This document shows, in pieces, positions 6,593 to 61,119 of a stretch of DNA of 64,000 bases. The stretch lies in sequence record OP557970.1. One strand, given 5' to 3'. Made by a program: the position numbers and the translations under genes. The first letter of the stretch is position 1. Every line of letters starts with the position of its first letter. The notes beneath the pieces are model-generated. The model was not told the origin of the DNA, made no database searches, and was given only the letters and a program-made list of their open reading frames with translations. The DNA is from Escherichia phage ph0021.

Positions 6593-8686
6593 TTATCCTT
6601 GAACGAACTTGTAAGGCATGTTTGTAATATCTATGCAAGACGCAATAATTCCAAGAGATGATTCTACTTTCTGTTTAATATTTGATGAAACAAATGATGC
6701 AAAGTCAACTCTGTCTTCTATTTCAATATCACCTGTCATTGCAACCAATTCACCAGTTTCCATTAAATGGTCTCCATCATAGATTACCGATTCGGTGAGC
6801 TCTTCCGTGGTCATAACTTCAGCTTGAATGAGTTTTGTATTATTAGATGTTGTTCCGTCATTATTAGAAGCATCGGTTATTTTATTAACTTTGACCATCA
6901 ATCCACGCGGTAGAATAACTTCAGCTTCTGTTGCTATTCCGAGACTTCCTGGATATACAACATTAACTTTATGAGCTCCATCAATTGCCCATCCTATTTG
7001 AACTTTAACATATTCAGGATTTTCTTTATACGCTCTTATTTCGTTTGGATTAATAGTTATTCCTTCTTCATTTTTATCAACTGTTAATTCATTGCGAGCT
7101 TCTGGTTCTAAAAGACCAATACCAGCATGTGTGATTCCAAAACGTCCAAAAATGATAGGAGTTAAAGAAGTAGATACAAAATTTCTGAAGTAGAACACTT
7201 TATTTTTAACTAACGCTTCATATATAGGAGCAGTCATACTTTGAGCACGATAAACTGTAATGCCTTCTGGTATACGGTCACCATTTTCAAAAGCTGAATC
7301 TAAGTTATTTATAGCAGATTCAATTTCTTTTTCACTCATTACATCGTATCGTTCTGGATTGTAACGACCTAAAAGAAGATTATTGATGTCAGTATATCCT
7401 GAACCGCAATATTCTCTAATGCCACGCTTTTGTGATGGAGTATATTTAGAACCATCGCGGGCAATAGTAATATCAATCATTGGACCAGCACCAATTCCAG
7501 AAAAACTGTAAATCATTCGTTTGAGGAATTTAGTTTTTGCTGCGTTCCAGGAATTTTTAGTTATTTCTTCCCAGACTTCATCTGGTTGTCCTTTACGATT
7601 TTTATTATGATTAGCAAGCCATTTATCTTTATAATCTTCAAAGAATTGATTTACAGCTGCTGCGTATTTCTCTAAACATTTTATTGAAGTAGTTGGTTCA
7701 TTTTTAATTGCATTAAAAATTACTTCTTTAATTTTTTCTGAAACTTCACCGACTTGACTCATTGGAAAGAATTTATAATCATAGTGAAGTTCATCTGCCG
7801 TTCCTTCAGCAATAATTTTTGCTGCCTTTGTTTTAGAAGCTAATGAATTAATTCCAATTTTCATTTCTTCTGCTTCGGGAATTAAAGGTGCAGTAGCTGG
7901 TTTATTAAAATTGGCTGCTGTAGATTCATACTTCTGGAATAATTCACTTTCAAATCTAGAAGATTCCAATGACTGACTTTGTGCAATTGCTCTACGGGAA
8001 ATTTTAACTTTAACGATTACAGCTTGGTCAGAACGTTTATCATTTTCTTGTGCAATAGATGCTGCAATTGCTTCATTTTTAGTTACTTGAGCTCCAGTAT
8101 CTTTATTGATATAAACATCACCGACCTTCGATTCAACTTTAGTAAAGAGTTCAGTGCTAATTTCTGGAACTCCTGGAATGTCTTCTAATGATACATTTTT
8201 GCGATGTATAAGAATATATGCATACTTTTTATCGTAATCCCAGAGTTCCTTAAGAAGGACGTATCTGCCACCTGAACGACTACGGATAAGTCTATCAGCA
8301 ATAACTTGAATTTGTCGAGCTTGGCCAGCAGTTTTAGACTTAAGAATACGAAGCATGCAGGCATCAATTTTATATTGACGCATCGTTTGCATTGCAACAG
8401 TAAAAACTGAATTGATATAATTAATTGGGCTTGGACCAAGACCTTTTAATTTAGCAATTGAGCCTTTAGCAGTTAATGTAAAAGGAACAATATGCATCAT
8501 TTTATCGCCCATCTTTAAATCGCGATTAGTATCACCTCCAGATGTATAGGTACATAAACGAAAGCCTGGTTGTTCAATTGCATCATCAACATGAACTGAA
8601 AAAATTTGTGGTATTTTCTTCTTTGGATTTAAGTTTGTAATCGGAAGAGTAGTATCTTCGTCAAATAATTCTGTAATAAGTTCCAT
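6593..8686 (-). CDS. alt: Alt ADP-ribosyltransferase (head-packaged, modifies host RNA polymerase)
   Basis: 697 aa starting MELITELFDEDTTLPITNL; ART R-S-E motifs; located between 54 and 30 as T4 alt. Confidence 0.85.
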   Translation of the reverse strand: MELITELFDEDTTLPITNLNPKKKIPQIFSVHVDDAIEQPGFRLCTYTSGGDTNRDLKMGDKMMHIVPFTLTAKGSIAKLKGLGPSPINYINSVFTVAMQTMRQYKIDACMLRILKSKTAGQARQIQVIADRLIRSRSGGRYVLLKELWDYDKKYAYILIHRKNVSLEDIPGVPEISTELFTKVESKVGDVYINKDTGAQVTKNEAIAASIAQENDKRSDQAVIVKVKISRRAIAQSQSLESSRFESELFQKYESTAANFNKPATAPLIPEAEEMKIGINSLASKTKAAKIIAEGTADELHYDYKFFPMSQVGEVSEKIKEVIFNAIKNEPTTSIKCLEKYAAAVNQFFEDYKDKWLANHNKNRKGQPDEVWEEITKNSWNAAKTKFLKRMIYSFSGIGAGPMIDITIARDGSKYTPSQKRGIREYCGSGYTDINNLLLGRYNPERYDVMSEKEIESAINNLDSAFENGDRIPEGITVYRAQSMTAPIYEALVKNKVFYFRNFVSTSLTPIIFGRFGITHAGIGLLEPEARNELTVDKNEEGITINPNEIRAYKENPEYVKVQIGWAIDGAHKVNVVYPGSLGIATEAEVILPRGLMVKVNKITDASNNDGTTSNNTKLIQAEVMTTEELTESVIYDGDHLMETGELVAMTGDIEIEDRVDFASFVSSNIKQKVESSLGIIASCIDITNMPYKFVQG

Positions 8687-53535: not shown

Positions 53536-53565
53536 TTATACCACATCCTTGTGGTAAAGTAAACT
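53536..53565 (-). promoter_or_regulatory. T4-type early promoter
   Basis: GTTTAC (53560..53565), 17-18 nt spacer, TATAAT on minus strand. Confidence 0.6.
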
Positions 53566-55384
53566 ACTGGCTCATCCATTCTTTACGAAGGTCAGCATTA
53601 TCTCCCATGAGCATTTCAAAAAGCTCTTTCCAATTCTCAGGAAGTTTAACAACATCATATACTGGGTTTTGAATCATCTCACGATATTCAGATTTTTCCA
53701 AAGAGCCAAGTCCTTTAATATAACGGATGCTATGTTTAGGTAGAGCATCTTTGGCACTCTCATATTCAGCGACTGTATAAAACCATTCTTGTTTTTTACC
53801 AATTTGAGCGATGATTACAGGAGTTTTGACAAAACGAATTCGTCCTTGCTCAAACAATTCTGGCCAATTACTAAAAAATCCGAGCAAAGAAGGATAAATG
53901 CTTCCTAGACCATCATGGTCGGCATCAGTCATAATAGCAATATTATGATAATTTAAGTTTTCAGCCTTTTCACCGAGAACTAATCCAGTGATTGCGCAAA
54001 TATCAAATAGTTCTTTGTTTTTAAGCATATCTGCATAAGACATACCCCAACTGTTGAGAACTTTACCGCGCAATGGATAACCACCGTGAAGTTCTTTATC
54101 ACGAACATCAATAAGATATCCGATAGCCGAATCACCCTCAGTTAAGAATAGTGTAGTGTCAGCATCTTTACCGCAAAGATTCGCTTTAATATGTTTATGA
54201 ACCTTAGCTTTAGAAGCCTTTTTAGCTGCTTTAGTTTCTGCTGCTTTTTCTGCTGCCAATTTACGGGCCAAGGCAGCTTCAATAATCGGCATTAAAATTG
54301 CTTCATTATTTAGAATAGCGCGTGAAATCTTTTTAGCATCAAGTTGAATATGACTACGAATTTCGCCAAATGGAGAAGTCAAACGCTCTTTAGTTTGAGA
54401 ATCAAATCGCATGTTTTTCATATCACGGACAAACATAACGATAGTCAAACATTCTTTGACACGTGCTTTAGTCACATCAATTTTGAACTTACGTTTGATT
54501 TGCGGAATAAGGTCTTCACAAATATCATCCATAACACAGTCAATGTGATGGCCACCATTCTTAGTGTGAATGTTATTGACGTATGTTAATTGACGAAAAC
54601 CATCCGGTGAACGACCAACCGCAATAGAACAATTTTCTTGTTCTTGAACAATAGCATGCTCATCATATTGGCGTGCATATTTCTTAAAATTGCCCTGAAC
54701 CTTTTTACCATTAAAGGTAAATTGAATATCAGGATAAACTACTGCAAGTGTCTGGAGACGATCTAGTGTAATGTCAAGATAAACTTGAGATAGCTCATTA
54801 GTTTCAAATGACATAAAATCAGGAATGAAAGTAACACGTGTTCCTTTCCATTTTCCAGGAATATCTTCCCATGATTTATTTTCCATACCATTTGAACAAC
54901 GAACTACAATATTATTTTGACCGTCGCCAGTTTCACCAACAAACATCACAGAAAAAATGTTTGTCAAACTAGAACCAACACCGTTCATACCGCCAGTGAC
55001 GCGTTCTTTATCATCACCGAAGTTACCACCTGCTTTTGGAATAGTCCATGCAGCAACAGGACCAGGAATTTCTTCACCGGTAGGTGTTTTGACCATCGCT
55101 TGTGGAATACCACGACCGTTATCTTCAACTGTTACTTGATTGTTTTTAATAGTAACATTAATTTTATTCGCGAATTTAAACTTAGTACGAATACCTTCAT
55201 CTACTGAGTTATCGATAATTTCATCAATAAGCTTAACAAGACCAGGTACATACTGAACACTTTCCCATTTACCAAACAGAAAGCGCTCATGCATTTCATT
55301 AGCAGAAGAGCCAATGTACATGCCACTACGCTTTTTGATATGTTCAATATCGCTCAGAATTTTAATTTCATTCTTAATCATCAC
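53564..55384 (-). CDS. 39: topoisomerase II large (GyrB-like ATPase) subunit, single uninterrupted ORF
   Basis: 606 aa with GHKL ATPase motifs (IEVEDNGRGIP-like), no interruption or bypass element visible. Confidence 0.9.
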   Translation of the reverse strand: MMIKNEIKILSDIEHIKKRSGMYIGSSANEMHERFLFGKWESVQYVPGLVKLIDEIIDNSVDEGIRTKFKFANKINVTIKNNQVTVEDNGRGIPQAMVKTPTGEEIPGPVAAWTIPKAGGNFGDDKERVTGGMNGVGSSLTNIFSVMFVGETGDGQNNIVVRCSNGMENKSWEDIPGKWKGTRVTFIPDFMSFETNELSQVYLDITLDRLQTLAVVYPDIQFTFNGKKVQGNFKKYARQYDEHAIVQEQENCSIAVGRSPDGFRQLTYVNNIHTKNGGHHIDCVMDDICEDLIPQIKRKFKIDVTKARVKECLTIVMFVRDMKNMRFDSQTKERLTSPFGEIRSHIQLDAKKISRAILNNEAILMPIIEAALARKLAAEKAAETKAAKKASKAKVHKHIKANLCGKDADTTLFLTEGDSAIGYLIDVRDKELHGGYPLRGKVLNSWGMSYADMLKNKELFDICAITGLVLGEKAENLNYHNIAIMTDADHDGLGSIYPSLLGFFSNWPELFEQGRIRFVKTPVIIAQIGKKQEWFYTVAEYESAKDALPKHSIRYIKGLGSLEKSEYREMIQNPVYDVVKLPENWKELFEMLMGDNADLRKEWMSQ

Positions 55385-55892: not shown

Positions 55893-56312
55893 TTATTCCT
55901 TAAAGTGTGCTTTCAACATCTGATACAAGGACCATGCTTGTTCATTATTTTCAATAATAACTTTCATGATCGGGAATTCTGTGAAATCTTCTATTTGTTC
56001 TTGCTCTTCCTGCTCTTGTTCTTCAGCTGCCTGATATGGATTTTCCACTTCATTAAAGAACTCAGCTTCGCTCGTTGAAAGCCAAATAAAATCTTCATCC
56101 AAAATATCTTTACCGGAGGATAACGCCAATCTTCCAGTAGATGTCACAATTTTAGTAGGACGACCAAGATGGTCAATATCTATAACTTTAAAAGGTTCCA
56201 TACCTAAACGCCGCGCATAGATTCCGTTATCAGTATGGTCTTTAATAAAATTTTCTTGAGCTTGTTTATTTTTAAATTGATACCATTTATTAACTTCGAA
56301 TTTAATAGCCAT
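55893..56312 (-). CDS. hypothetical protein with acidic repeat (goF-like position)
   Basis: 139 aa; [10 protein letters not shown] tract. Confidence 0.35.
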
Positions 56313-56530
56313 TAATAAATTTCCTTCCAGTAAGTTGTGCCATCTTCAGTAATTTCACGAAATACACCGTAAATTGGTTGTTTATCCCCAACCTTTTCAT
56401 ACACATAAACCGAAGTCAAGTGAGTAAACTTAGCAGTGTGTTCCTTTTGAACTACTACCAAATCTGGATCGAATAATACATCTTCAAATTCATCATTAGT
56501 GCAATTCTGAACAATTTTACGTTTCATCAT
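56312..56530 (-). CDS. hypothetical protein (cef-like position)
   Basis: 72 aa ORF. Confidence 0.3.
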
Positions 56531-56701
56531 AATTTCCTCATTAATTGAACATTGGAGCGATGCGTTTCAGAAGAGTATCAGCGCACCTTTAACGAATTAT
56601 CCATTTTATTCTTCAAGTTGTTTTCTGTATCAGTAGTTGATATTGATATAGTACCATAATCAACTACTGATGTATATAGTTTTATGAAAAAATTTTAAAC
56701 T

Positions 56702-57193
56702 TTATGCATAGCGAGCTTTGCTGTAGTGTTTAATCCAACTTTCAGGAATGACTTTGTATGTTCCTAAAAATACCGCGTTGTATAACTTAACGCCATCTTC
56801 TACCCATTGATCAGTAATGTATGCACACATAGCGCGAGTACGCTGAGGAAGTGGTTGTCCACCTTCGGTAAATTCAAACTCATAAGGAGCAATGAACTTG
56901 ATAGCTTGACCAAGTTTCCACTTAAAGTCTACACCTACATGCGAAGTATCAATCGTTTCAATTCCTTTAGCAGGAACAGCTTTCAAAAACGCAGGCTCAA
57001 GAAATTTCCATCGAACATAACCAAACTGGGGCTTAGACATTCCATCTTTAGCAATGATACGTACTTTTACTTCAGAATCTTCATCTTTAACACCGTGTTT
57101 AAGCTGAATGCTTACAACTTCGACCAATTTTCCTGCTGCTTTAGAACGGGATTTATCAGATACACGAGCAATTTCACCGATATTAATATTCAT
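56702..57193 (-). CDS. motB: MotB-like protein
   Basis: 163 aa at the T4 motB position upstream of dexA. Confidence 0.5.
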   Translation of the reverse strand: MNINIGEIARVSDKSRSKAAGKLVEVVSIQLKHGVKDEDSEVKVRIIAKDGMSKPQFGYVRWKFLEPAFLKAVPAKGIETIDTSHVGVDFKWKLGQAIKFIAPYEFEFTEGGQPLPQRTRAMCAYITDQWVEDGVKLYNAVFLGTYKVIPESWIKHYSKARYA

Positions 57194-57237
57194 AATTATC
57201 TCTCACTTGTTAAAAAGATTTTATACTCCACAGGACC

Positions 57238-57267
57238 ATTATACTCTGGTCCCAAGAGTTTGTAAAC
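57238..57267 (-). promoter_or_regulatory. T4-type early promoter
   Basis: GTTTAC (57262..57267) and GTATAAT -10 on minus strand. Confidence 0.55.
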
Positions 57268-57815
57268 TAGCTTACACGAACATTAATCACTGCGCTACGA
57301 GGAACTACAGAGTATTCTCCAGCATGAACTACGTTCAGAAGTTCAACACCATCTTCAATCCACTGGTCTGTTACCCAACCACAGATAGGATTATCAAAAG
57401 GACGACGGATAGACACAGCAGCACACAACAAGTCTGTAGGGTCTTGTTCTTCAACTTCTTGGAACAGGATGAACTCATCTTCATAAACCAGGTTTTTCTT
57501 TATTTTGTTATTATCTAACCGGCGACCGTGGATGACGTAAGATTTGTCAAACCACTCACTTTTGGCAAATTCTTCAACAATAAATTCGCCTTCGCCAAAA
57601 ACATCAGTCAGAGTTTTATGACCAGAAATCAAGGCATTAGTTTTAATTTTAGGTTCAACCAGTTTGTAGGTTTTGCCGATTTCAATAGCGGTAGTCATAG
57701 TAGTTTCCTTAATTTCCAGTGGTTTAACAGGGCATACATAAGTGCTTACAACATCAAAATCAATCAGTTTAGCTACTGGATTTGGTGTGTATTCAGGATT
57801 ATAATTAAATTTCAT
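57267..57815 (-). CDS. MotB paralog
   Basis: 182 aa; C-terminal ~45 aa (WVTDQWIEDGVELLNVVHAGEYSVVPRS) parallels the neighbour (YITDQWVEDGVKLYNAVFLGTYKVIPES). Confidence 0.5.
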   Translation of the reverse strand: MKFNYNPEYTPNPVAKLIDFDVVSTYVCPVKPLEIKETTMTTAIEIGKTYKLVEPKIKTNALISGHKTLTDVFGEGEFIVEEFAKSEWFDKSYVIHGRRLDNNKIKKNLVYEDEFILFQEVEEQDPTDLLCAAVSIRRPFDNPICGWVTDQWIEDGVELLNVVHAGEYSVVPRSAVINVRVS

Positions 57816-57817
57816 AA

Positions 57818-58318
57818 TTATCTCATTTCAATAAAATCTACGAGTTCAGCATGGGATTTACGGAACATTACTTGATGTCCACCAATGATAACTTCATCTT
57901 CAGGAACTTCATATACAGCGAGATAAAATCCTTTAGAAGCTAATTCTTCACGCTCTTCTCGTGTGAACCATCTCATCATATCATATTCACTAGCGAAAGC
58001 AAAATGATAAAGACCTATAAACCATCCGGGAATATGATATTCTACTCCAACATAATCTTTCTTGAACTTAGTATTAATTACTATATTAGCGTTTTTAACT
58101 AATAGTTTATCTTCGTGCGGTAAAGGAATTCTTTTATTATTATCGCTATGATGCATAAAATTAGGTCTGTCATAACCTACGTGTAATAGCCACTCTTCGC
58201 TCCATGAATCTATTATACTCCTGTACGGCGTTATTTGAACACAAAGATTTCGACGTATTGTTATAGCATCTTCATAATCAAGAATACTAAACGATGATTC
58301 AACACGATAAATTTTCAT
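57818..58318 (-). CDS. hypothetical protein
   Basis: 166 aa ORF with its own early promoter. Confidence 0.4.
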   Translation of the reverse strand: MKIYRVESSFSILDYEDAITIRRNLCVQITPYRSIIDSWSEEWLLHVGYDRPNFMHHSDNNKRIPLPHEDKLLVKNANIVINTKFKKDYVGVEYHIPGWFIGLYHFAFASEYDMMRWFTREEREELASKGFYLAVYEVPEDEVIIGGHQVMFRKSHAELVDFIEMR

Positions 58319-58344: not shown

Positions 58345-58377
58345 TTATAATACCATAACTAACCGAGGAAGTAAACA
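58345..58377 (-). promoter_or_regulatory. T4-type early promoter embedded in an inverted repeat
   Basis: GTTTAC (58372..58377), TATTATAA -10 flanked by ggttagctatggt / accataactaacc. Confidence 0.5.
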
Positions 58378-58382
58378 ACTTT

Positions 58383-59066
58383 TTATCGTTTAGTTGGAAG
58401 AGATAGAGGATCGCATTCTTCCTCTGATGGAGCGTCTTCAAGACCCATAGCATACCGCAAAGCATACTTCATCATCAGGATGTCTTTCGCACAGTCATGA
58501 ATGGAATCATGTGCAACAAATCCATCCAAGGTTCCTTTTGGAAGAGGACATGTGGTCATATCACGAACGAGTAGAAGTGCTTCAATTCTGGTACGAATAT
58601 CACGCTGATTCCAGAATTTACATGGTTCTAACTTAAATGTGTCAAGTTCATTCTCAGAAACGCCATTAAAACGTTGAATATCGCGAATGAGATCGACTAA
58701 AATTGGAAAATCAAACGACATTCCACGGCACCAGCCTTGAGATTTCCAAGGATCGATATTATGCGCATTGATGTAATCATTAAATTTTGCAATACCGTCA
58801 ATAGTGCTTACATCTTCATCGGATGGTGCAATATTTTTTCTAGCTTCAGGGGATTGATTCTTCCACCATTCGATAGTGCTTTTAGTAAAAAGACGATGTC
58901 CTTTTTGGCTTTTTAAATCAAATTTGATTTTAATGCCGCGTGAAACTAATTCATCAAATGTTTCAACTACTTCTGGGTTAGGGTCAAAAGCAATTACAGC
59001 TAAATCAATAACAGCTGCTTTTTCACCGCTTCCCATTGTTTCAAAATCTATAATAAAATCAAACAT
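58383..59066 (-). CDS. dexA: exonuclease A (DEDD 3'-5' exonuclease)
   Basis: 227 aa; N-terminal FDFIIDFETMG exo motif I; T4 DexA size and position. Confidence 0.85.
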   Translation of the reverse strand: MFDFIIDFETMGSGEKAAVIDLAVIAFDPNPEVVETFDELVSRGIKIKFDLKSQKGHRLFTKSTIEWWKNQSPEARKNIAPSDEDVSTIDGIAKFNDYINAHNIDPWKSQGWCRGMSFDFPILVDLIRDIQRFNGVSENELDTFKLEPCKFWNQRDIRTRIEALLLVRDMTTCPLPKGTLDGFVAHDSIHDCAKDILMMKYALRYAMGLEDAPSEEECDPLSLPTKR

Positions 59067-59799: not shown

Positions 59800-61119
59800 T
59801 CACACATAAAATACGTCATAACGACCACGGGTAACACCAACATAAAGAAGTTGTTGAGCCAATTCAGCATCTGCATAATGAATACAAGGCGTATAGATGA
59901 AAGCACGATCTACAGACATACCCTGAGCTTTATGGAATGTTGATGCAGGAAGTGCTTTCACTTTACTAAACTGTGATTTAGCATCCCAAAAATCACTCCA
60001 CGGAGCTTTTCCGCCTTTATTCCAGTTCTTATAAGTTTCTGCCGTTTTACCTAAAAATAGGTTAAACTTATATAGCTCTTCATCAGATGAAATTATTTTA
60101 ATCTTTTCGCGATAATATTCATCATCGCCGTAAGTTTCTACTGTTAAATCCCAATGACGAATTAAGTATTCTCCAGGAACACCACGAGCTTTAACAAATG
60201 TTGATGTATATTCTGCTTCTATAATACGAACTAATTGTCCATTATTAAAAATAATTTCTGACACAGGCTTTCCATCAATTTTATATGTTTTAATTAATGG
60301 TTCCTGCATTACAATAATTTCACCGACAATAAAATCTTTATCAGTTTCAAAAATCTTTTTACGAATAATGCTATTTAACTTGTCAACAGATTTATTCGTA
60401 AATGCCATTACGCGATTTTCAAACAAATCATCTAGAGATTTGACGATTGAAAAATAATTTACCATAAAATCGCGTAAAGCGGTATCACCAGTAAATCCAC
60501 GTACTCCATGCCCGTCAACAATTTTATCATAAATCCACTTACCGTTACGAACGTCAGTAGCTACATCAATAATAGGAGCATTACTGCGTTTAACTTCAGT
60601 GAGTTCACACTGATAAAAATCTTTATGTGTAAAGAATGGACTGATATAAGCAGTGTTTTCTCCTGGGTCAACAGGTCTAATTTGCTTATTATCACCTATT
60701 CCAATTATAGTACACCACGGCGGGATAGTTGAAAGCAGAATTTTAAATAGCTTTCTATCATACATTGACACTTCGTCACAGATTAATACCCTGCATTTAG
60801 CTAAATCTGGTACTTCCTTCTGTTCAAAAAGAACATTTTCTTCATATGTTACTGGGTTAATTTTAAGAATACTATGAATAGTACTCGCTTCTTTTCCTGA
60901 TAGTTTTGAAAGAATCTTTTTAGCTGCATGAGTAGGAGCTGCTAAAATAATACCAGTTTCACCTGTAGATATTAGGGCTTCAATAATAAACTTAGTAAGA
61001 GTAGTCTTACCGGTACCAGCAGGTCCATTAATAGTTACATGATGTTTCTTTTCTTTAATAGCCTTCATAACGATGTTAAAGGCATTTTTCTGGCCTTCGG
61101 TCAAATCATCAAATGTCAT
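59800..61119 (-). CDS. dda: Dda DNA helicase (SF1B)
   Basis: 439 aa; Walker A GPAGTGKTT; T4 Dda length. Confidence 0.95.
   Translation of the reverse strand: MTFDDLTEGQKNAFNIVMKAIKEKKHHVTINGPAGTGKTTLTKFIIEALISTGETGIILAAPTHAAKKILSKLSGKEASTIHSILKINPVTYEENVLFEQKEVPDLAKCRVLICDEVSMYDRKLFKILLSTIPPWCTIIGIGDNKQIRPVDPGENTAYISPFFTHKDFYQCELTEVKRSNAPIIDVATDVRNGKWIYDKIVDGHGVRGFTGDTALRDFMVNYFSIVKSLDDLFENRVMAFTNKSVDKLNSIIRKKIFETDKDFIVGEIIVMQEPLIKTYKIDGKPVSEIIFNNGQLVRIIEAEYTSTFVKARGVPGEYLIRHWDLTVETYGDDEYYREKIKIISSDEELYKFNLFLGKTAETYKNWNKGGKAPWSDFWDAKSQFSKVKALPASTFHKAQGMSVDRAFIYTPCIHYADAELAQQLLYVGVTRGRYDVFYV

What the first reader, a model, noticed from the sequence alone, without database searches (positions are those of the whole stretch)
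56702..57815. Tandem MotB-like paralogs sharing a C-terminal domain
Adjacent 163 aa and 182 aa ORFs have unrelated N-terminal halves but a clearly homologous C-terminal ~45 aa (ITDQWVEDGVKLYNAVFLGTYKVIPES versus WVTDQWIEDGVELLNVVHAGEYSVVPRS). Each has its own GTTTAC early promoter. This points to duplication and divergence of a host-targeting early protein; T4 MotB is reported to be DNA-binding and toxic to the host.
Basis: partly seen in the sequence, partly recalled or inferred. Interest (0 to 1): 0.45.

Follow-up and report, generated by a model that had tools for sequence, protein, structure and literature searches.

The report
T4-type motB and motB.1 paralogs
The two adjacent genes are the known phage T4 early genes motB and motB.1, whose shared C-terminal domain and likely origin by duplication were published in 2021, so the finding is real but ordinary.

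Summary
The window is a T4-like (Tequatrovirus) genome. ORF 56702-57193 (-) is MotB: it matches Pfam PF17613 over its full length (5e-94). ORF 57267-57815 (-) is the positional ortholog of T4 MotB.1 (PHROG 2333, 7e-89).

Their C-termini are homologous: BLASTP gives 17/31 identical residues (E 2e-11), hhalign of the two families gives E 1.4e-15 over 36 columns, and the PHROG MotB profile matches 58 residues (E 5e-16). The AlphaFold2 strands of the two C-terminal domains (CTDs) coincide.

One detail is wrong. Only motB has its own GTTTAC promoter. The other GTTTAC lies upstream of motB.2, which abuts motB.1.

The shared CTD, the different N-terminal domains (NTDs) and the duplication idea were published by Son et al. 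2021 (PMC7827196). The GoF-like barrel NTD of MotB.1 was published by Kim et al. 2025 (PMC12152347). Novelty: already known.

What I add:
- Klebsiella T4-like phages carry one gene at this locus, combining a MotB-type KOW NTD with a MotB.1-type CTD. This supports duplication followed by NTD replacement.
- MotB.1 is acidic (pI 4.9) and MotB is basic (pI 9.3), so MotB.1 is probably not a MotB-like DNA coater.
- The T4 reference sequence has an extra G that truncates MotB.1 to 119 aa. Five re-sequenced T4 genomes checked base by base lack it (143 aa).

The parts
56702..57193 (-). motB coding sequence (163 aa plus stop), a basic early DNA-binding protein.
   Evidence: Pfam PF17613 matches the full length, 5.2e-94. 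phrog_1671 3.2e-75. Syntenic with T4 motB. pI 9.3, net charge +6.
56990..57193 (-). MotB N-terminal small beta-barrel (residues 1-68), KOW/SH3-like and basic (pI 9.6).
56705..56932 (-). MotB C-terminal domain (residues 88-163). The core shared with MotB.1 is residues 121-156 (56726-56833).
   Evidence: BLASTP, hhalign and the A5 alignment. AlphaFold2 strands 97-108, 117-132, 135-142, 145-150, 154-157.
57238..57267 (-). T4 early-type promoter of motB: GTTTAC, 18-nt spacer, TATAAT. The -35 hexamer overlaps the motB.1 stop codon.
   Evidence: 11/12 consensus match. GTTTAC at 57262-57267. The promoter and 5' leader are nearly invariant against T4. A promoter is annotated at the same place in phage JB75.
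57267..57815 (-). motB.1 coding sequence (182 aa plus stop), an acidic paralog of MotB.
   Evidence: phrog_2333 6.9e-89 over the full length. 232 homologs, all carrying PF17613. 69% identity to re-sequenced T4 MotB.1 over the C-terminal 78 aa. Same position as T4 motB.1. pI 4.9, net charge -9.
57270..57464 (-). MotB.1 C-terminal domain (residues 118-182). The core shared with MotB is residues 143-178 (57282-57389).
   Evidence: PF17613 hit at residues 140-176. phrog_1671 hit at residues 121-178. AlphaFold2 strands 133-136, 144-154, 157-164, 167-172, 176-178 coincide with the MotB strands at an offset of 22 residues.
57465..57698 (-). MotB.1 N-terminal barrel (residues 40-117), of the GoF/Frd.2/MotB.1 'LSm-like' type.
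   Evidence: phrog_622 hit at residues 44-125, E 3.1e-4. The window's GoF is phrog_622 at 6e-40. AlphaFold2 pLDDT 64-71 with beta strands and one helix. Family described in PMC12152347.
57699..57815 (-). MotB.1 N-terminal extension (residues 1-39), predicted disordered. It carries the motif LIDFDVVSTYVCPVKPL.
   Evidence: pLDDT below 50 for residues 1-41. Residues are conserved as protein across homologs. The same D-x-D-V-x-S-M-Y...P-L motif lies just before the CTD in the single-copy KOW-type relatives.
57818..58318 (-). motB.2 (166 aa), the upstream gene. It abuts motB.1 and is probably co-transcribed with it.
   Evidence: ORF list. The stop TAA lies 2 nt before the motB.1 ATG. phrog_1106. 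T4 annotation.
58347..58376 (-). T4 early-type promoter-like site (GTTTAC, 18-nt spacer, TATTAT) upstream of motB.2. It is the likely promoter for motB.2 and motB.1 together.
   Evidence: Conserved in T4 and JB75.

Best explanation
Identity (shown). The window carries the T4-type early gene cluster motB.2 - motB.1 - motB. MotB (163 aa) and MotB.1 (182 aa) are tandem paralogs, each built from small beta-barrel modules.

Shared module (shown). Both end in a C-terminal five-strand barrel with the core G-[WY]-[VI]-T-D-Q-W-[VI]-E-D-G-V-x-L-x-N-x-V...V-[VI]-P-x-S.

Different N-terminal modules (shown). MotB has a basic KOW-like barrel. MotB.1 has a GoF-like ('LSm-like') barrel preceded by a disordered extension.

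Origin (inferred from comparison). An ancestral single gene, KOW barrel - linker motif - C-terminal domain, is still present alone at this locus in some Klebsiella T4-like phages. It was duplicated in tandem. The downstream copy stayed a basic DNA-binding protein (MotB). The upstream copy kept the ancestral-looking CTD but exchanged its KOW barrel for a GoF-like barrel.

Function. From the literature, for T4 MotB: it is made from its own strong early promoter, coats DNA non-specifically, perturbs H-NS and is toxic when overproduced. Inferred here: DNA binding rests mainly on the basic KOW barrel and basic flanks. The shared CTD is acidic in most family members, so it is more likely a structural or protein-contact module than the DNA-binding surface. 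MotB.1 (pI 4.9) is therefore probably not a MotB-like DNA coater; it more likely uses the same CTD with a different, possibly RNA- or protein-directed, N-terminal barrel. motB.1 is probably expressed with motB.2 from the early promoter upstream of motB.2.
For: Identity:
- Pfam and PHROG assignments.
- Near-identity to hundreds of Tequatrovirus genomes.
- Synteny with T4.

CTD homology:
-.
- Strand-for-strand agreement of the two AlphaFold2 models.

Two-barrel architecture:
- The MotB.1 model matches a 163-aa MotB model (170 alignment columns) and a 'KOW domain-containing protein' over most of their length in BFVD.

GoF-like NTD: phrog_622.

Ancestral single-copy state:
-.
- Full-length PF17613 hit for the KOW-type relative P0239, and a Pfam KOW hit above threshold for P0244.
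- CTD of P0233 is 71% identical to the MotB.1 CTD and 51% to the MotB CTD.

Charge pattern across the family: basic first 60 residues and acidic CTD.

Promoters.

MotB biochemistry: PMC6070864 and PMC7827196.

The CTD family is small and confined to short phage proteins: 32 representatives among 1.84 billion.
Against: - No experiment assigns DNA binding to either MotB domain. Son et al. considered both the KOW and the 'OB-fold' CTD as candidates.
- The GoF-like assignment of the window's NTD rests on one weak profile hit (E 3e-4). hhalign against the window's GoF alone was not significant.
- The direction of evolution (which CTD type is ancestral) is inferred from only a few genera.
- Transcription start sites were not measured.
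Confidence: 0.8

Rival explanations
1. Partial duplication or module capture. Only the CTD-coding segment of motB was copied, or moved by recombination, onto a pre-existing GoF-like barrel gene. On this reading motB.1 never was a complete motB copy.
For: - The NTD belongs to the GoF/Frd.2 barrel family, and goF lies only about 1 kb away.
- N-terminal modules in this family are clearly shuffled: forms exist with two tandem barrels (P0232), with an extra roughly 70-aa N-terminal module (P0020, P0238), and with a different barrel in T4 versus the window.
Against: - The window's MotB.1 keeps, at its extreme N-terminus, the D-x-D-V-x-S-x-Y...P-L linker motif. In the KOW-type single-copy proteins this motif sits between the KOW barrel and the CTD. 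That fits a barrel inserted into a full copy better than a bare CTD being captured.
- The MotB.1 CTD is closer to the single-copy relatives than to the neighbouring MotB, so it is not a recent copy of the adjacent motB CTD.
Confidence: 0.2
2. MotB.1 is a second, functionally redundant non-specific DNA-binding, nucleoid-remodelling protein like MotB. This is the 'transcriptional regulator' of many database annotations.
For: - It shares the CTD that Son et al. predicted to be an OB-fold DNA-binding domain.
- Many records label it 'transcriptional regulator' or 'MotB domain-containing protein'.
- Small SH3-like barrels often bind nucleic acids.
Against: - It is acidic overall (pI 4.9, net -9), and its CTD has pI 4.2.
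- It lacks the basic KOW barrel.
- The annotations are transfers from the Pfam name, not tests.
- T4 motB.1 mutants showed no phenotype, and overproduced MotB.1 accumulated to high levels in a reporter assay with no toxicity mentioned in the passages read. The expressed protein was, however, the 119-aa reference form.
Confidence: 0.12
3. The similarity is a chance or compositional match between two unrelated ORFs.
For: None found. The aligned stretch is short (31 aa pairwise).
Against: - E 2e-11 pairwise and E 1.4e-15 profile-profile.
- The Pfam hit is above its gathering score.
- It is the only such pair in the 64-kb window.
- It is conserved across hundreds of phages.
Confidence: 0.01

Closest known systems
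Phage T4 MotB (Pfam PF17613, PHROG 1671; Patterson-West et al. 2018, PMC6070864; Son et al. 2021, PMC7827196)
   Same: ORF 56702-57193 is this protein. It gives a full-length profile match, sits at the same locus with the same early promoter and leader, is about 85% identical to the T4-type cluster representative (P0125), and has the same basic charge.
   Different: Nothing of note; it is an ordinary ortholog.
Phage T4 MotB.1 (UniProt P39415, '13.8 kDa protein in motB-dexA intergenic region'; PHROG 2333)
   Same: Same position between motB.2 and motB. It gives a full-length phrog_2333 match and is 69% identical over the last 78 residues, including the complete CTD.
   Different: - The N-terminal half is strongly diverged from T4's and about 40 residues longer.
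- It corresponds to one of the alternative-NTD categories of Son et al..
- The T4 reference entry is truncated inside the CTD by a 1-nt insertion that re-sequenced T4 genomes lack.
GoF / Frd.2 / MotB.1 'LSm-like fold' family of Tevenvirinae (Kim et al. 2025, PMC12152347)
   Same: Residues 44-125 of the 182-aa ORF hit the GoF family profile phrog_622, as does the T4 MotB.1 NTD. The model shows a beta-rich barrel.
   Different: The hit is weak (E 3e-4), and a direct profile comparison with the window's GoF is not significant. GoF and Frd.2 lack the MotB-type CTD.
KOW / Tudor / PWWP / chromo small SH3-like beta-barrels (e.g. Spt5 KOW 5ohq, 53BP1 tandem Tudor 3lgf, NusG 2xhc)
   Different: Sequence identity is only 5-20%, and there are no aromatic-cage or KOW signature matches in Pfam for the window proteins. 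This is fold-level resemblance, not family membership.

Membership tests
MotB (Pfam PF17613 / PHROG 1671) | Full-length match to the family profile above the curated threshold. | tested here: met
   163-aa ORF: 312.9 bits against a gathering score of 25, residues 1-163 on profile 1-162; phrog_1671 3.2e-75. 182-aa ORF: only the C-terminal part matches, at 36.8 bits on profile 117-153, so it is a member at the domain level only.
MotB (Pfam PF17613 / PHROG 1671) | Basic KOW-like N-terminal barrel. | tested here: inconclusive
MotB (Pfam PF17613 / PHROG 1671) | Non-specific double-stranded DNA binding, toxicity, interplay with H-NS. | not testable with these tools
   Known only from experiments on T4 MotB (PMC6070864, PMC7827196).
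MotB.1 (PHROG 2333) | Full-length profile match and a position between motB.2 and motB. | tested here: met
   phrog_2333 6.9e-89 over residues 1-181. Synteny with T4 and JB75.
MotB.1 (PHROG 2333) | MotB-type C-terminal domain with the core W-V-T-D-Q-W-I-E-D-G-V-E-L-L-N-V-V. | tested here: met
   These residues are invariant in 28 homologs. hhalign to the MotB family gives E 1.4e-15.
GoF/Frd.2/MotB.1 LSm-like barrel family (Kim et al. 2025) | N-terminal five-strand bent beta-sheet homologous to the GoF NTD. | tested here: inconclusive
   phrog_622 E 3.1e-4 for residues 44-125. hhalign against the window's GoF gives E 0.42. The model has pLDDT 64-71 here, with strands 49-52, 77-85, 93-99, 104-109 and a helix at 60-73.
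OB-fold (cold-shock / eIF5A C-terminal type), proposed for the CTD by Son et al. 2021 | Five-strand OB barrel recognisable by structure comparison. | tested here: inconclusive
T4 early promoter | GTTTAC at -35, a 17-18 nt spacer and TATAAT at -10, directly upstream of the gene. | tested here: met
   motB: met, at 57267-57238. motB.1: not met, because the nearest element (58376-58347) lies upstream of motB.2.

The most novel reading that the evidence does not exclude
The shared C-terminal barrel is a homo- or hetero-oligomerisation (or common-partner) module. On this reading the acidic MotB.1, encoded just upstream, pairs with the basic, toxic MotB through that module. It would then tune or cap MotB's DNA compaction, or redirect it, so that the two paralogs work as a regulator-effector pair rather than as independent proteins.

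A corollary concerns T4. The heterologous MotB.1 assays would be uninformative about this, because the expressed constructs encode the 119-aa reference reading frame that lacks most of the module. The null phenotypes of the T4 motB.1 amber and deletion phage mutants do not depend on that construct, so they are unaffected and still have to be accommodated by this reading.
Probability: 0.1. Interest if true: 0.45.

Novelty: already known. Interest (0 to 1): 0.13.

Why it matters
As a discovery it matters little. The MotB/MotB.1 relationship is in the literature and in Pfam-based annotations.

Its practical value lies in three points.
1. It gives a cleaner evolutionary picture: one ancestral KOW-plus-CTD gene, then tandem duplication, then exchange of the N-terminal barrel.
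2. The charge pattern argues against the common database label 'transcriptional regulator / DNA-binding' for MotB.1.
3. The T4 reference sequence truncates MotB.1 in the middle of the very domain it shares with MotB. The protein expressed in published heterologous assays (synthesised from NC_000866.4, quoted as 13.8 kDa) may therefore not be the protein T4 makes.

Tried and rejected
- Third paralog in the window. tblastn gave a weak hit (E 0.035) at 6914-7039 (-). It lies inside the 697-aa Alt-like ADP-ribosyltransferase ORF and is taken as chance.
- Solved structures. A profile search of the MotB family against PDB sequences found nothing (best E 0.9).
- N-terminal homology between MotB and MotB.1 at the sequence level. 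None was found by BLASTP or hhalign.
- Direct hhalign of the MotB.1 family against the window's GoF. Not significant (E 0.42). Only the PHROG profile links them.
- MotB.2 as an SRA-like modified-base reader. The Pfam SRA hit (E 0.098) is seen in 1 of 15 homologs, and no PDB sequence match was found, so the idea is rejected.
- Long proteins (601-1544 aa) hit by the CTD profile. They match through several short stretches of 18-27 residues, so I took them for repeats matching by chance and did not inspect them.

Full report
**What is there**

The region matches hundreds of Tequatrovirus (T4-like) genomes at 80-100% identity, and its gene order equals that of T4. In window coordinates, all on the minus strand, the genes are:
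- gene 39: 53564-55384
- 39.1/39.2-type small ORFs
- goF: 55893-56312
- cef: 56312-56530
- motB: 56702-57193
- motB.1: 57267-57815
- motB.2: 57818-58318
- dexA: 58383-59066
- dda: 59800-61119

The 163-aa ORF matches Pfam motB (PF17613) end to end at 312.9 bits. The 182-aa ORF matches PHROG 2333 end to end at 6.9e-89, the same family as T4 MotB.1. It has 232 homologs, all carrying a PF17613 hit.

**Check of the observation**

The two proteins share a significant C-terminal similarity:
- BLASTP: 17/31 identical, E 2e-11.
- The only cross-hit in the whole 64-kb window.
- hhalign of a 28-sequence MotB.1 alignment against a 26-sequence MotB alignment: E 1.4e-15 over 36 columns.
- A Pfam motB hit on residues 140-176 of the 182-aa protein, above the gathering score.
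- A PHROG MotB-profile hit on residues 121-178, E 4.6e-16.

A joint alignment of the C-terminal domains suggests that the homology covers the whole domain. That is about 65 aa in MotB.1 and 76 aa in MotB, with a 15-residue longer first hairpin in MotB.

The AlphaFold2 models were MotB at mean pLDDT 79.8 and MotB.1 at 62.0, with the MotB.1 CTD at 73-82. In MotB.1 they place strands at 144-154, 157-164, 167-172 and 176-178. In MotB they place strands at 117-132, 135-142, 145-150 and 154-157. This is the offset of 22 residues given by the sequence alignment.

The promoter statement is only half right. GTTTAC-N18-TATAAT lies directly before motB, at 57267-57238, and overlaps the motB.1 stop codon. 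There is no GTTTAC between motB.1 and motB.2. The motB.1 ATG follows the motB.2 stop by two bases. The second GTTTAC-N18-TATTAT lies upstream of motB.2, at 58376-58347, and is conserved in T4 and JB75.

**What is already known**

- Son et al. [quoted passage not shown] - Kim et al. 2025 (PMC12152347) assigned the T4 MotB.1 NTD, with GoF and Frd.2, to an 'LSm-like' SH3-type barrel family. They found no phenotype for T4 motB.1 mutants.
- Patterson-West et al. 2018 (PMC6070864) showed that MotB is toxic, basic, binds double-stranded DNA non-specifically and raises burst size.

Some GenBank records already label the 182-aa ortholog 'transcription regulator MotB domain-containing protein'. The finding is therefore correct but not new.

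**What the tools add on anatomy**

In MotB.1, residues 44-125 hit the GoF family profile phrog_622 (E 3.1e-4), as does the T4 MotB.1 NTD. The window's GoF is phrog_622 at 6e-40. Residues 1-41 are predicted disordered.

**What the tools add on origin**

A profile of the CTD alone was searched against 1.84 billion representative proteins. It finds only 32 proteins, 23 of them below 1e-10. Nearly all are short, and the confident hits carry the domain at or near the C-terminus. Their sequences show a combinatorial set of architectures:
- KOW-type NTD with MotB-type CTD.
- KOW-type NTD with MotB.1-type CTD (P0231, P0233-35, P0239, P0243, P0245, P0246).
- GoF-like barrel with MotB.1-type CTD.
- A form with two tandem barrels (P0232).
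- Forms with an extra N-terminal module (P0238).
- A 43-aa deletion product that fuses the MotB.2 start to the last 27 residues of MotB.1 (P0248).

P0239 matches Pfam motB over its full length, and P0244 passes the Pfam KOW threshold.

The phage records closest to the KOW-plus-MotB.1-CTD form P0233 (61% and 48% identity by tblastn) are Klebsiella phages of other Tevenvirinae-like genera. There the match is the only MotB-family gene and sits at the same dexA-...-cef-goF locus. The P0233 CTD is 71% identical to the window's MotB.1 CTD and 51% identical to its MotB CTD.

A linker motif, D-x-D-V-x-S-M-Y...P-L, precedes the CTD in these proteins. In the window's MotB.1 it is found at the extreme N-terminus, before the barrel.

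The simplest history is this (inference): a single KOW-linker-CTD gene was duplicated in tandem, the KOW barrel was then replaced, and a GoF-like barrel was inserted in the upstream copy.

**Likely mechanism**

Shown by others for T4 MotB: early expression, non-specific DNA coating, altered H-NS footprints and toxicity.

Inferred here from charge:
- The KOW-type N-terminal 60 residues are basic in most family members (pI 9-10 in 8 of the 12 KOW-type proteins tabulated).
- The CTD is acidic in most of them (pI 4.1-5.5 in 9 of the 13 proteins tabulated), and near neutral only in a few, including Tequatrovirus MotB.
- The window's MotB.1 has pI 4.9 (net -9), and its CTD has pI 4.2.

I therefore consider the CTD a structural or protein-contact barrel rather than the DNA-binding surface, and MotB.1 unlikely to coat DNA as MotB does. 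What the CTD contacts is unknown. A homo- or hetero-oligomerisation role, which would fit DNA bridging by MotB and modulation by MotB.1, is the most interesting reading not excluded. I give it about 10%.

**Side finding on the T4 reference**

In NC_000866.4 / AF158101.6, motB.1 reads ...CAATGGATTGGAAGATGG... This shifts the frame inside the conserved core (WVTDQWI|GRWR*) and gives 119 aa.
- Five independently sequenced T4 records (MT984581, KJ477684, HM137666, OZ209023, OL964735) read TGGATTGAAGATGG, which gives 143 aa with the full CTD.
- Six further T4 records, plus RB55 and RB59, align the 518-base query to 517 bases at 99.8% identity, which is consistent with the same one-base difference.
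- Downstream of the extra G, the reference DNA stays almost identical to the in-frame sequence of the window.

This looks like an error, or a private mutation, of the reference. Kim et al. had their constructs synthesised commercially, cite NC_000866.4 coordinates for the amber-mutant inserts, and quote 13.8 kDa, the mass of the 119-aa form. The MotB.1 they expressed from a plasmid therefore probably lacked most of the shared domain.

**Verdict**

Novelty: already known. Interest is low.

Noticed in passing
L002 (NC_000866.4) 7291-7650, around record position ~7306; compare window 57349-57368 (-): The T4 reference genome has one extra G in motB.1 (TGGATTGGAAGATGG). It truncates the protein to 119 aa inside the domain shared with MotB. 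Five re-sequenced T4 records checked base by base lack it, giving 143 aa. Six further T4 records plus RB55 and RB59 align with the same one-base length difference. Published MotB.1 constructs were made by gene synthesis, NC_000866.4 is the sequence the paper cites, and the quoted mass is that of the 119-aa form.
   Followed up: yes
L004 3001-3456 (Klebsiella phage vB_KM5a1-KLB31) and L005 2998-3441 (Klebsiella phage vB_Kpn_P545): These phages have a single MotB-family gene at the syntenic dexA-...-cef locus, with a MotB-type KOW N-terminus and a MotB.1-type C-terminal domain. It is the likely pre-duplication state.
   Followed up: partly
P0248 (43 aa; metagenomic representative), corresponding to window 58268-58318 fused to 57270-57350: This is a deletion derivative. 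The first 17 residues of MotB.2 (MKIYRVESSFSILDYED) are joined in frame to the last 26 residues of the MotB.1 C-terminal domain (GVELLNVVHAG...), which removes nearly all of both genes. It may be like the 29-aa RB69 'Category 3' peptide of Son et al..
   Followed up: no
window 57717-57767 (-), MotB.1 residues 17-33: The motif LIDFDVVSTYVCPVKPL lies at the N-terminus of MotB.1. In the KOW-type relatives the same motif (e.g. VVDTDVASMYLTPGLPL) lies between the KOW barrel and the C-terminal domain, which suggests that the GoF-like barrel was inserted downstream of it.
   Followed up: partly
window 56629-56671 (-): A strong RNA hairpin (13-bp outer stem plus 5-bp inner stem) starts about 30 nt downstream of the motB stop codon, in the 170-bp motB-cef spacer. 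The 96-nt stretch folded around it (56610-56705) gives -22.6 kcal/mol, z -5.4 against shuffles. It is not followed by a U-run, so it is not a canonical intrinsic terminator. It could be a 3'-end stabiliser or a processing barrier.
   Followed up: partly
window 57696-57720 (-), around Met40 of MotB.1: An internal ATG (Met40) is preceded by a good Shine-Dalgarno sequence (AAGGAAACTACTATG) and sits exactly where the predicted barrel begins, aligning with Met1 of GoF. A shorter 143-aa product lacking the disordered extension is conceivable. Met40 and the preceding PLEIKE are conserved in the 28 aligned homologs: P32, L33, E34, K36 and M40 are invariant, and I35 and E37 nearly so.
   Followed up: no
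window 57818-58318 (-), motB.2: All MotB.2 homologs carry a precomputed Pfam family PF26820 that is not in the local Pfam copy. A weak SRA-domain hit (E 0.098) did not hold up in 14 other homologs or against PDB sequences.
   Followed up: yes
window 57349-57368 (-); L004 3349-3368; L005 3340-3359: The 20-nt stretch GACCAGTGGATTGAAGATGG, which encodes D-Q-W-I-E-D-G, is identical at every synonymous site in the window and in Klebsiella phages of two other genera. This could be strong codon or nucleotide-level constraint, or recent exchange of the CTD module.
   Followed up: no
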